NCBI RefSeq assembly: GCF_013315695.1
Contig: NZ_CP054353.1
Source of the DNA: Escherichia coli
GTDB taxonomy: Bacteria > Pseudomonadota > Gammaproteobacteria > Enterobacterales > Enterobacteriaceae
Direction: 5' to 3' (one strand)
Length of the DNA: 64,000 nucleotides
Below, piece by piece: positions 48,101-51,100 of the stretch (positions within the stretch are counted from its first letter, which is position 1; each line of letters starts with the position of its first letter). A program made the position numbers.

Positions 48101-51100
48101 TTCAATAACCAGATGGCCTGGCTGCGCGACAGGGGATACGCGACACTGAGCATGGCGCAGCTGGAAGGTTACGTGAAGAATAAGATCAATCTCCCTGCGC
48201 GAGCGGTGGTGATTACCTTTGATGATGGCCTCAAGTCGGTGAGCCGCTATGCGTATCCTGTGTTGAAACAATATGGTATGAAGGCGACGGCGTTTATTGT
48301 TACCTCGCGCATCAAACGTCACCCGCAGAAATGGAACCCAAAATCGCTGCAATTTATGAGCGTTTCTGAACTTAACGAAATTCGCGATGTATTTGATTTC
48401 CAGTCACATACTCATTTTTTGCATCGGGTGGATGGTTATCGCCGACCCATATTACTGAGCCGTAGTGAGCACAATATTCTGTTTGATTTTGCACGTTCAC
48501 GCCGCGCTCTGGCGCAATTTAATCCACATGTTTTGTATCTTTCTTATCCATTTGGCGGATTTAATGACAAAGCCGTGAAGGCAGCAAAAGAAGCCGGATT
48601 TCACCTGGCGGTGACGACCATGAAAGGCAAAGTAAAACCGGGGGATAATCCGTTGTTACTAAAACGACTTTATATCTTAAGAACGGATTCGCTGGAGACG
48701 ATGTCGCGGCTGGTGAGTAACCAGCCGCAGGGATAACAATCAGGCAACCTGTACCGGAATCGCTTTCGCGGTACGTTTCATTTCGTTGTCGCCTTCAAAA
48801 TAGGCGACGTTGGGTCGCCAGGTGCGAGCTTCTTCATCTGGCATGGTAACGAAGCTGGCGATGATGACAATATCGCCGACGCTGGCGCAGTGGGCCGCCG
48901 CACCGTTAACAGAAATAATTCTCGAACCGCGTTCTGCCGCGATGGCATAGGTGGAGAAACGCTTGCCGTTGGTCACATTCCAGATATCAATGGCTTCGTT
49001 TTCGAGAATACCAGCTGCGTCAAGAAAATCCTGGTCAATGGCGCAAGAACCTTCATAGTGCAGGTCCGCATGAGTCACTTTCACGCGGTGGAGTTTGCCC
49101 TGCAGCATCGTGCGAATCATAACTTCTACCTTTCTACCCTGTCGTTAACGAAGCAGGCGATGCCTGCTTTGAGGAAATTCTCACGCAGTATTGCCCGATT
49201 TTTGTTTAGTGTCTACTCATCTGACGGCATTTGCATCAGCAGTTTGCGTACCGTGCCGAAGCGTGCCATGTAACGCCTGTAACCAATTGAAATTTCTCTG
49301 AACGCTGCTCGGTAAACACTAAAGAGGCGGCTGACGACGGCGCGCCTTGACTGGATACTGCCTTCACGCAAGACAGCACGGAAGGCAGGGAAGATGGATG
49401 CACCGAGTACCACACCGCATGATGCGGTGTTTAAACAATTTTTAATGCACGCGGAAACGGCTCGCGACTTTCTGGATATCCATTTGCCAGCGGAGCTACG
49501 CGAACTGTGTGACCTCGACACGCTGCATCTTGAGTCGGGGAGTTTTATTGAAGAAAGCCTGAAAGGGCACAGCACTGACGTGCTCTATTCCGTGCAAATG
49601 CAGGGTAATACGGGCTATCTACATGTTGTAATTGAACACCAAAGCAAGCCGGACAAAAAAATGGCCTTTCGCATGATGCGTTATTCTATTGCTGCCATGC
49701 ACCGGCATCTGGAGGCAGATCACGATAAGCTGCCGCTGGTGGTGCCGATTTTGTTTTATCAGGGCGAGGCCACGCCTTATCCACTCTCAATGTGCTGGTT
49801 TGATATGTTTTACTCGCCGGAGCTGGCGCGACGCGTCTATAACAGTCCTTTCCCGCTGGTGGATATCACTATCACACCGGATGACGAAATCATGCAACAT
49901 CGGCGGATTGCGATTCTCGAACTGCTGCAAAAACATATTCGCCAACGCGACTTAATGTTATTGCTGGAGCAACTGGTCACGCTGATAGACGAAGGGTACA
50001 CTAGCGGAAGTCAGTTAGTTGCCATGCAAAACTATATGCTGCAACGCGGTCATACTGAACAAGCGGATTTGTTTTATGGTGTGCTGAGAGACAGGGAAAC
50101 GGGAGGGGAGTCTATGATGACGTTGGCGCAGTGGTTTGAAGAGAGGGGAAGACAGGAGGTAAGACAGGAGGTAAGACAGGAGGTAATACAAGAGGTTAGA
50201 CAGGAAGTAAGACAGGAATTCGCCCTGCGTTTTCTGAGTAAAGGGATGTCTCGGGAAGACGTTGCAGAGATGGCAAATTTACCTCTTGCTGAGGTTGATA
50301 AGCTGATTAGCTAAGTTATCTGCATTATCAGTTATAGCCAGATAATTGTTATTGTTAACTGACCAGATAATTAAGGGAACATATGGAAATAAAGACACGG
50401 AGAGAAACCAGGCAGACGTTGGCGCAGTGGTTTGAAGAGAAGGGATTTCAGAAGGGATTTCAGAAGGGATATAAAGAGGGACTCCAGAAGGTAAGACTGG
50501 CCCAGCGTCTTCTGAGTAAAGGAATGTCTCGGGAAGACGTTGCAGAGTTGGCAAATTTACCTCTTGCAGAGATTGATAAGCTAATTAACTCTAACTAAGT
50601 TGTCTACGATATGAATAATTGCTTACAGATGACGTGGCAATGAATAACTGGCGCCATCAGCCGTAGCGCCAGTTAAATATTACGCCAGTTCTACGATTTT
50701 GTTGTCGATCAGGCGAGCATCGCCAAGCCAGGCGGCTACCAGAATCACCGCTCGTTTGCTGTTTTCAGAGATTTCCAGCAAGGTGTCGGCATCGCGAATC
50801 TGAATATCATCGGAACGGAAACCTTTTTCATTCAGTTCTTGCCCGGCAATAGCAATAATTTCATCGAGATCCCGTTCGCCAGCCTGCAATTTGTCGGCAA
50901 TTGAACTTAAGACCTTGTACAGACCCGGCGCAATTTTGCGTTGTTCCGCCGTCAGATAACCGTTACGGGAACTCAGCGCCAGACCGTCTTTGGCGCGCAT
51001 AATCGGTACGCCGACAATCTCAATATCAAAGCCCATATCAGCAACCATTTTGCGGATCAGCGCCAGTTGCTGAAAATCCTTTTCACCGAAGCAGGCGATG

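What the first reader, a model, noticed from the sequence alone, without database searches (positions are those of the whole stretch)
50315..50606. Extra free-standing gene for an Rpn C-terminal small domain downstream of rpnC (yadD)
The yadD-panC spacer is about 365 bp here, against about 73 bp in K-12 as I recall the coordinates. The extra DNA contains a 71-codon ORF with a good RBS whose product aligns along its length with the last roughly 65 residues of RpnC: TLAQWFEE., the repeat tract, then LSKGMSREDVAE.ANLPLAE.DKLI. Nucleotide similarity to the rpnC 3' end is also visible, so this is a diverged tandem duplication of the small-domain module. My recollection is that small C-terminal-domain proteins made from internal starts within rpn genes act as antitoxins to the toxic full-length Rpn nucleases implicated in phage defence. 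A separately encoded copy with altered repeats could be an orphan or additional antitoxin with different specificity.
Basis: partly seen in the sequence, partly recalled or inferred. Interest (0 to 1): 0.7.

Follow-up and report, generated by a model that had tools for sequence, protein, structure and literature searches.

The report
Known spare Rpn antitoxin-like gene, rpnCSs
The extra 71-codon gene between rpnC and panC is real, but it is the already published "rpnCSs": a free-standing duplicate of the small antitoxin tail of the RpnC phage-defence nuclease, carried by about 29% of complete E. coli genomes.

Summary
The window has rpnC (49394-50314), a 68-nt spacer and a 71-codon ORF (50383-50598). 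The rpnC-panC gap is 365 nt, against 73 nt in K-12. The ORF product is 58% identical to the RpnC tail (E=3e-22). Zhong et al. 2023 (PMC10400941) describe this gene as rpnCSs and derive it from RpnC. They also note its 4-aa repeat variation and its loss by deletion or fusion. It occurs at this locus in 1555 of 5426 complete E. coli genomes and in E. marmotae. NCBI's PGAP annotation pipeline annotates it, though inconsistently.

Added here:
- Its repeat tract almost never matches the length of the neighbouring rpnC tract (1 of 57 mostly metagenome loci, 0 of 13 genome-assembly loci). Under the published "equal repeats" rule it is therefore unlikely to be the cognate inhibitor of the adjacent nuclease.
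- Tract types are shuffled between the two positions.
- The K-12 rpnC tail and 3' flank match, with one mismatch, a downstream-copy allele (locus L052). K-12 is therefore probably a fusion or loss allele, not the uninserted state.
- The copy's C-terminal part evolves with pN/pS≈0.87, against 0.19 for the rpnC tail, yet its ORF stays intact.

Function remains untested. Interest is low.

The parts
49394..50314 (+). rpnC (yadD), full-length RpnC-L, a PD-(D/E)XK-family Rpn nuclease of 306 aa
   Evidence: ORF. TIGR01784 E=8.5e-82. 94% identical to K-12 RpnC. Annotated as Rpn family nuclease in the 100%-identical strain MS 21-1.
50114..50314 (+). In-frame internal ORF for RpnC-S, the intragenic antitoxin. 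ATG codons at 50114 and 50117 follow the purine-rich GGGAGGGGAG at 50101-50110.
   Evidence: Read from the sequence. This stretch is identical in K-12, where translation of RpnCS from an internal start was shown (PMC10400941).
50149..50217 (+). 12-nt (4-aa, RQEV-type) repeat tract of the rpnC tail. The tract between WFEE and LSKG is 30 aa.
   Evidence: TRF gives period 12 and 5.8 copies. Tract sequence.
50119..50144 (+). 5' conserved box (TLAQWFEE), identical to 50415-50440. It is a candidate recombination substrate.
   Evidence: the repeat finder family D1. K-12's rpnC body joins the downstream-copy-type tail at this box.
50222..50312 (+). 3' conserved segment of the rpnC tail (LSKGMSREDVAE...DKLIS), duplicated at 50500-50590
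   Evidence: the repeat finder family D2: 91 nt, 91% identity.
50315..50382 (+). 68-nt AT-rich spacer with two CCAGATAATT direct repeats (50338-50347 and 50363-50372) and the AAGGGA Shine-Dalgarno-like site (50373-50378)
   Evidence: No terminator-like site and no + strand promoter match in it. The spacer is conserved in E. marmotae, and in 1552 of 1555 carrier genomes the 126-nt query that contains it is at least 95% identical.
50383..50598 (+). rpnCSs, the free-standing 71-aa RpnS-type small protein. It has a unique N-terminus (MEIKTRRETRQ), a 24-aa KGFQ-type tract and an HTH_Rpn_C-like end.
   Evidence: TIGR01784 C-terminal match, E=1.1e-10. Weak precomputed PF27070 hit on the 93%-identical P0012. 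Annotated 'RpnC/YadD family protein' or 'hypothetical protein'. Named rpnCSs in PMC10400941.
50438..50491 (+). 12-nt (4-aa, KGFQ/KGYK-type) repeat tract of rpnCSs
   Evidence: TRF gives period 12, 2.8 copies, 100% matches at 50438-50470, and period 24 up to 50491. Copy number varies between strains: tracts run from 12 to 42 aa.
50645..50675 (.). G+C-rich hairpin (TAACTGGCGC...GCGCCAGTTA) between rpnCSs and convergent panC. It is the likely shared transcript end and is the same element as in the K-12 rpnC-panC spacer.
   Evidence: Inverted repeat I3. RNA fold. Aligned with K-12.

Best explanation
Identity (near-certain): this is rpnCSs, a separately encoded paralogue of RpnC-S, the small antitoxin tail of the RpnC nuclease. 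It arose by one old tandem duplication of the rpnC 3' end.

How it most likely works (inferred):
- It lies upstream of the only hairpin in the rpnC-panC gap and has no terminator before it. It is therefore probably co-transcribed with rpnC/rpnCS and translated from its own AAGGGA-ATG start.
- It folds as a long repeat-bearing helix followed by two short helices, which is the RpnS dimerisation/HTH_Rpn_C module.
- Its repeat tract (24 aa, KGFQ type) differs in sequence and length from that of the adjacent RpnC (30 aa, RQEV type). One extra repeat abolishes neutralisation in RpnC. It is therefore probably NOT the cognate inhibitor of its neighbour; that job belongs to the in-frame RpnC-S made from 50114.
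- Instead it is a decoupled RpnS-type module of different specificity. It also acts as a spare tail: recombination between the conserved boxes flanking the tract can put it onto rpnC. That re-specifies toxin and intragenic antitoxin in one step. The K-12 allele looks like such a product.
For: Identity:
- 58% identity to the RpnC tail, E=3e-22.
- 91% DNA identity over 91 nt, plus an identical 26-nt box.
- Match to the C-terminal end of TIGR01784, E=1.1e-10.
- Weak PF27070 HTH_Rpn_C hit on near-identical proteins.
- Same panD-rpnC-small gene-panC layout in E. coli and E. marmotae.
- Published as rpnCSs (PMC10400941; commentary PMC10400984).

Expression context:
- No terminator-like site between rpnC and the ORF, and a hairpin after it.
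- rpnC and panC transcripts overlap in K-12 (PMC12288877).
- The analogous RpnESs (YpaA) is detectably synthesised.

Fold: the AF2 model has helices 5-19, 22-45, 50-57 and 61-70, with pLDDT 78-88 over residues 31-70. This fits the three-helix RpnAS description.

Non-cognate specificity:
- Only 1 of 57 loci has tracts of equal length, and there are 36 distinct combinations.
- 0 of 13 genome-assembly loci (11 E. coli, 2 E. marmotae) have equal tracts.
- Identical small proteins sit next to rpnC genes of different length.
- The published rule is that +1 repeat abolishes neutralisation.

Spare-tail role:
- The same tract types occur in both positions in different strains.
- The K-12 tail, last two codons and 3' flank match the downstream copy of L052 with one mismatch, while L052's own rpnC tail is of the window type.
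Against: - There is no expression or interaction data for this gene, and none can be obtained here.
- The repeat-number rule was shown only for +1 repeat in K-12 RpnC. Binding through the C-terminal helices despite unequal tracts is not excluded.
- pN/pS of the non-repeat C-terminal part is 0.87, which would also fit relaxed constraint.
- PGAP labels the gene a pseudogene fragment in some genomes, although the ORFs there are intact.
- Neither Foldseek nor sequence search linked the model to the solved RpnAS structure 7TH0.
- With about 2 equal-length pairs expected from random pairing (my arithmetic on the counts), the data show lack of matching, not active avoidance.
- The metagenome loci are not phylogenetically independent.
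Confidence: 0.6

Rival explanations
1. Second, cognate antitoxin. RpnCSs binds and inhibits the adjacent RpnC-L just as RpnC-S does. It raises or decouples the antitoxin dose, which is the reading suggested in the PNAS commentary.
For: It has the same domain and 58% identity to the tail. It is probably co-transcribed. The commentary suggests decoupled regulation.
Against: Tract lengths differ in 56 of 57 loci and in 13 of 13 genome-assembly loci, and they vary independently. In this window the two tracts are unrelated in sequence (RQEV x5 against KGFQ type) and differ by 6 aa. One added repeat abolishes neutralisation in RpnC.
Confidence: 0.15
2. Decaying remnant. The duplication left a non-functional, slowly eroding fragment, and the ORF survives only because it is short and young.
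For: pN/pS is 0.87 in its non-repeat C-terminal part, against 0.19 for the rpnC tail. About 65% of E. coli genomes with the locus lack it. PGAP calls it a pseudogene fragment in some genomes.
Against: The ORF is intact, with start, SD-like site and C-terminal end, in 62 of 64 complete loci and in all 14 genome-assembly loci. These include E. marmotae and the genomes where PGAP says 'pseudo'. All tract changes are in frame. The spacer and 5' end are at least 95% identical in 1552 of 1555 genomes. A tail identical to a downstream-copy allele works as antitoxin in K-12. The parallel RpnESs is expressed.
Confidence: 0.15
3. Decoy or sensor. The free copy homodimerises and titrates a phage factor that targets RpnS-type tails, or neutralises non-cognate Rpn nucleases arriving by horizontal transfer.
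For: Amino-acid variation is concentrated in residues about 56-64 and in the tract, with a high pN/pS. This would fit diversifying selection. Zhong et al. suspect that a phage factor drives repeat variation.
Against: There is no direct evidence and no candidate partner. Gene conversion from rpnC tails could produce the same pattern.
Confidence: 0.1

Closest known systems
rpnCSs of E. coli (Zhong et al. 2023, PNAS, PMC10400941, Fig. 2I)
   Same: It has the same position (downstream of rpnC, before panC), the same origin from the RpnC tail, the same 4-aa repeat variation and the same presence in only some strains. This is the same gene.
   Different: Nothing essential differs. This allele has a 24-aa KGFQ-type tract. 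The paper's main text reports no functional test of RpnCSs.
ypaA / rpnESs downstream of rpnE in E. coli K-12
   Same: A free-standing second copy of an RpnS tail lies immediately downstream of its parent rpn gene. The protein was detected by SPA tagging.
   Different: It is an independent duplication derived from RpnE, not RpnC, and it lies at another locus.
RpnC-S, the intragenic antitoxin translated from the internal start of rpnC
   Same: It has the same three-helix tail module, the same conserved TLAQWFEE and LSKGMSREDVAE boxes and a repeat-bearing first helix.
   Different: RpnC-S is read from the same DNA as RpnC-L, so its tract always matches. rpnCSs has its own start, a unique 11-residue N-terminus, a tract that almost never matches and a faster-evolving C-terminal part.
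Stand-alone DUF4351 (PF14261) proteins, the label Zhong et al. give for separately encoded RpnS in some species
   Same: The concept is the same: an Rpn C-terminal domain encoded as its own gene.
   Different: The Pfam scan of this protein found no DUF4351 match at E<=10. The relevant newer family is PF27070 HTH_Rpn_C, with a weak hit.
Silent-cassette variation systems such as pilE/pilS gene conversion (analogy from general knowledge only)
   Same: A linked partial copy flanked by conserved boxes can replace the variable part of an expressed gene.
   Different: Here the spare copy has its own start and is probably expressed. Exchange is seen only as population-level mosaics and fusions, not as a programmed process.

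Membership tests
RpnS / RpnSs small proteins (Zhong et al. 2023) | Homologous to the C-terminal tail of an Rpn (TIGR01784 / PF04754) nuclease | tested here: met
   BLASTP against the RpnC tail gives 58% identity, E=3e-22. TIGR01784 positions 213-273 of 273 match at E=1.1e-10.
RpnS / RpnSs small proteins (Zhong et al. 2023) | Hypervariable 4-aa repeats that begin 8-20 residues after the initiating Met, within the first long helix | tested here: met
   The tract starts after residue 19. The helix is predicted through the tract.
RpnS / RpnSs small proteins (Zhong et al. 2023) | For the 'Ss' type: encoded as a separate gene directly downstream of the parent rpn gene | tested here: met
   A 68-nt spacer follows the rpnC stop, and the gene has its own ATG and SD-like site. 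The layout is the same in 1555 E. coli genomes and in E. marmotae.
RpnS / RpnSs small proteins (Zhong et al. 2023) | Compact three-helix fold that dimerises through the long first helix (RpnAS, PDB 7TH0) | tested here: inconclusive
   The AF2 model shows a long helix plus two short helices at mean pLDDT 70. Foldseek gave only weak generic HTH hits. 7TH0 was not reached by sequence. Dimerisation is not testable here.
RpnS / RpnSs small proteins (Zhong et al. 2023) | The protein is synthesised | not testable with these tools
   Only sequence signals are available: an SD-like site, an intact ORF in 62 of 64 loci and in 14 of 14 genome-assembly loci.
Type II-like antitoxin of RpnL | Binds RpnL and blocks its toxicity and nuclease activity | not testable with these tools
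   Indirect evidence argues against cognate pairing with the neighbour, because tract lengths are unequal and the published rule requires equal repeats.
Pfam PF27070 HTH_Rpn_C | Significant match to the family HMM | tested here: inconclusive
   A precomputed '(weak)' hit is on record for the 93%-identical P0012. The Pfam release behind profile_search does not appear to contain PF27070.
Pfam PF14261 DUF4351 | Match to the family HMM | tested here: not met
   hmmscan of the 71-aa protein shows no DUF4351 match at E<=10.

The most novel reading that the evidence does not exclude
rpnCSs is not an antitoxin for its neighbour. It is a standing, expressed donor cassette. Recombination between the conserved TLAQWFEE and LSKGMSREDVAE boxes moves its tract and tail onto rpnC. 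That switches the specificity of toxin and intragenic antitoxin together, without ever unmatching them. The textbook K-12 rpnC, whose RpnC-S was used to define repeat specificity, would itself be such a re-tailed fusion allele.
Probability: 0.35. Interest if true: 0.5.

Novelty: already known. Interest (0 to 1): 0.2.

Why it matters
The gene itself adds nothing new. It is published, annotated and common. What could still matter to people who study Rpn defence systems is the population pattern found here:
- The free copy's repeat tract is essentially never matched to that of the adjacent nuclease.
- Tails move between the two positions.
- The K-12 reference allele appears to carry a tail derived from a downstream copy.

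If confirmed, this would explain how a toxin and its in-gene antitoxin can change specificity without passing through a lethal mismatched state. It would also bear on which allele should count as 'wild type' in experiments. The inconsistent PGAP labels (family protein, hypothetical, 'transposase', pseudogene fragment) are a small annotation problem worth fixing.

Tried and rejected
- Pfam scan of the 71-aa protein gave nothing significant (best DUF2802 at 0.0066, HTH_3 at 0.044) and no DUF4351.
- PDB sequence searches with the protein, the family profile and full RpnC never reached RpnAS (7TH0). The only notable hit was a designed 'CAP repeat' HTH protein.
- Foldseek of the AF2 model against the PDB gave only weak generic HTH matches (TrpR, DeoR, resolvase HTH; E>0.5).
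- PADLOC has no Rpn model. I dismissed a weak RmrA hit (E=0.0018) as a chance helical match.
- The promoter scan found no + strand sigma-70 match in 49900-50750, so I did not claim an own promoter.
- The genome-contig scan with the gene's 5' signature gave a single contig binned as Oscillospiraceae, which says nothing about species distribution.
- Supplementary files of Zhong et al. are not held, so their Fig. S3 and Dataset S1 could not be compared.
- A later literature search found no functional study of RpnSs proteins.
- Chance ORF was rejected on homology. The 91-aa antisense ORF 50279..50554 has no support beyond being open.
- 'Active avoidance of equal tract length' was rejected. About 2 equal pairs are expected from random pairing of the observed lengths and 1 was seen (my arithmetic).

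Full report
**Observation.** The window holds panD (48740..49120, -), rpnC/yadD (49394..50314, +, 306 aa), a 68-nt AT-rich spacer, a 71-codon ATG ORF (50383..50598, +) preceded by AAGGGA, and convergent panC (50680..51531, -). The rpnC-panC gap is 365 nt.

The ORF product aligns with the last ~70 residues of RpnC at 58% identity, E=3e-22. At the DNA level, 91 nt are 91% identical (50222-50312 vs 50500-50590). A 26-nt box encoding TLAQWFEE is identical at 50119 and 50415. Each copy has its own 12-nt tandem repeats: AAGACAGGAGGT x5.8 in rpnC and AGAAGGGATTTC x2.8 in the small gene. One small correction: the in-frame internal ATGs of rpnC are at 50114 and 50117.

**What it is.** The 71-aa protein matches only the C-terminal end of the Rpn family model TIGR01784 (positions 213-273 of 273, E=1.1e-10). 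Near-identical proteins carry a weak precomputed hit to PF27070 HTH_Rpn_C. The older Pfam release available for scanning gave nothing significant and no DUF4351.

An AlphaFold2 model built on 27 homologues shows a long helix (5-19 and 22-45, carrying the repeats) followed by two short helices. pLDDT is 78-88 over residues 31-70. This agrees with the published description of RpnAS as a three-helix module that dimerises through a long first helix. I could not link the model to the solved structure 7TH0 by Foldseek or by sequence.

**Already known.** Zhong et al. 2023 (PNAS, PMC10400941) showed three things. The rpn genes encode toxic nucleases (RpnL). Small antitoxins (RpnS) are translated from internal starts. 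RpnS can also be a separate gene. [quoted passage not shown] They show that it clusters with RpnCS, note that RpnSs proteins also vary by 4-aa repeats, and say that rpnSs genes can be lost by deletion or by fusion to the rpn N-terminal domain. The accompanying commentary repeats the point.

NCBI's PGAP annotation pipeline annotates the gene. In the 100%-identical strain MS 21-1 it is WP_000404119.1, 'hypothetical protein'. Elsewhere it is 'RpnC/YadD family protein', 'transposase', or a pseudogene fragment 'missing N-terminus'. I found no later paper with a functional test of RpnSs proteins. The Zhong et al. main text reports only detection of the K-12 analogue RpnESs/YpaA.

**Distribution.** A 126-nt query specific to the spacer and the small gene's 5' end is present in 1555 of 5426 complete E. 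coli genomes (28.7%). It is always chromosomal, and carriers include Nissle 1917, ST131 and O145:H28. The protein family is also found in E. marmotae and unnamed Escherichia species. E. marmotae contigs have the same panD-rpnC-small gene-panC layout with the same spacer. The duplication therefore looks single and old.

**Paired tracts.** I collected 61 metagenome contigs with the gene's 5' signature, plus genome loci. I compared the tract between WFEE and L(S/N)KG in the rpnC tail and in the downstream copy.
- Of 57 loci with both tracts there were 36 distinct combinations, and only one had equal length.
- rpnC tracts ran from 14 to 42 aa and downstream-copy tracts from 18 to 42 aa.
- Random pairing of the observed lengths would give about two equal pairs (my arithmetic). 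The result therefore shows absence of matching, not avoidance.
- One identical small protein sits next to rpnC genes of different lengths (306 vs 310 aa, 314 vs 330 aa).
- In genome-assembly loci (11 E. coli and 2 E. marmotae where both tracts could be read), all 13 had unequal tracts. All 14 small ORFs were intact, including those PGAP marks as pseudogene fragments.

In this window the rpnC tract is RG(RQEV)3 IQEV RQEV RQEF ALRF (30 aa). The small gene's tract is KGFQ KGFQ KGYK EGLQ KVRL AQRL (24 aa). Zhong et al. showed that adding one repeat to RpnCS or to RpnCLS abolishes neutralisation unless both carry it. I therefore infer that the downstream copy is probably not the cognate inhibitor of the adjacent nuclease.

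**Exchange between the two positions.** The same tract types occur in both contexts in different strains.
- The K-12 tract KGIEKGIQQGRQEVSQEFAQRL appears behind the free-standing N-terminus MEIKTRRETRQ (P0056, P0064, P0065, L052).
- KGFQ-type tracts with the LINSN end appear behind the intragenic context DRETGGESMMTLAQ (P0016, P0033, P0036, P0037).

A multiple alignment places the whole K-12 rpnC tail and 3' flank on the downstream copy, not on the rpnC tails of two-copy loci. It matches the downstream copy of locus L052 with a single mismatch, at the TLAQ box. The match includes the tract, the last two codons (CTT ATT TAA) and the flank GTTACCTGTGTTATGACAGATGACGTGGGG. L052's own rpnC tail is of the window type.

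With one old duplication, the simplest reading is that the K-12 single-copy allele arose by recombination between the two TLAQWFEE boxes. That event would fuse the rpnC body to a downstream-copy tail. It also means that a tail identical to a downstream-copy allele is a working toxin tail and antitoxin, since K-12 RpnCS neutralises K-12 RpnCL.

**Selection.** Outside the repeats, the C-terminal 26 codons of the downstream copy give pN/pS 0.87 (15 alleles). The same segment of the rpnC tail gives 0.19 (12 alleles). Amino-acid variation is concentrated around residues 56-64. The ORF is intact in 62 of 64 complete loci. This fits relaxed constraint, diversifying selection or repeated conversion, and I cannot separate these here.

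**Expression context.** No terminator-like site and no + strand promoter match lies between the rpnC stop and the small gene. The only strong hairpin (50645-50675) lies after it and is the same element that follows rpnC in K-12. K-12 rpnC and panC transcripts overlap. Co-transcription with rpnC/rpnCS is the likely mode, but this is inferred.

**Verdict.** The best explanation is that it is rpnCSs, a decoupled RpnS-type module of different specificity that also serves as a spare tail for rpnC. The rivals are a cognate second antitoxin, a decaying remnant and a decoy, and only experiments can exclude them. Interest is low. The modest added value lies in the unmatched-tract pattern and the evidence that the K-12 allele is a fusion.

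Noticed in passing
L002 (K-12) 2440-2790 compared with L052 and window 50383-50680: The K-12 rpnC tail, its last two codons and its 3' flank match, with one mismatch, the downstream small gene of metagenome locus L052. The reference rpnC allele therefore looks like a fusion of the rpnC body to a downstream-copy tail.
   Followed up: partly
window 50383-50598 and the corresponding genes in L072, L073, L074, L076, L077: PGAP labels this gene inconsistently: 'RpnC/YadD family protein', 'hypothetical protein', 'transposase', or a pseudogene fragment 'missing N-terminus'. 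The ORF is full-length and intact in all of these genomes.
   Followed up: yes
window 50548-50575 (residues about 56-64 of the small protein): There is a patch of concentrated amino-acid variation (AE[LVM][AT][NAT]L[PS]L[AT]E[IV]) in the second and third helices. pN/pS is 0.87 here, against 0.19 for the same segment of the rpnC tail.
   Followed up: partly
L046 1-2900: One metagenome contig has an IS66-family element (three ORFs of 216, 115 and 523 aa) inserted about 27 nt upstream of the small gene's ATG. This separates the small gene from rpnC.
   Followed up: partly
L014, spacer equivalent to window 50338-50372: A 25-nt deletion lies exactly between the two CCAGATAAT direct repeats of the spacer. 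It shortens the rpnC-to-small-gene gap to 43 nt and looks like slippage between the repeats.
   Followed up: no
L070 3886-3911: The only species-representative genome contig with the small gene's 5' signature is binned as an uncultured Oscillospiraceae MAG. It is probably an Escherichia contig that was mis-binned.
   Followed up: no
window 3619-3709 (+): An Rfam gathering-level match to PssrA ('plasmid-encoded Shigella sRNA A', 102 bits) lies on what appears to be chromosomal sequence. Other Rfam hits are tp2 at 25599-25712 (-), STnc40 at 9356-9425 (+) and naRNA4 at 9829-9905 (+).
   Followed up: no
L003 and L004 (E. marmotae), rpnC tails: Two E. marmotae genomes with identical small proteins differ by four KGIE repeats in rpnC (tracts of 38 and 54 aa). 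The 54-aa tract is the longest seen here.
   Followed up: no
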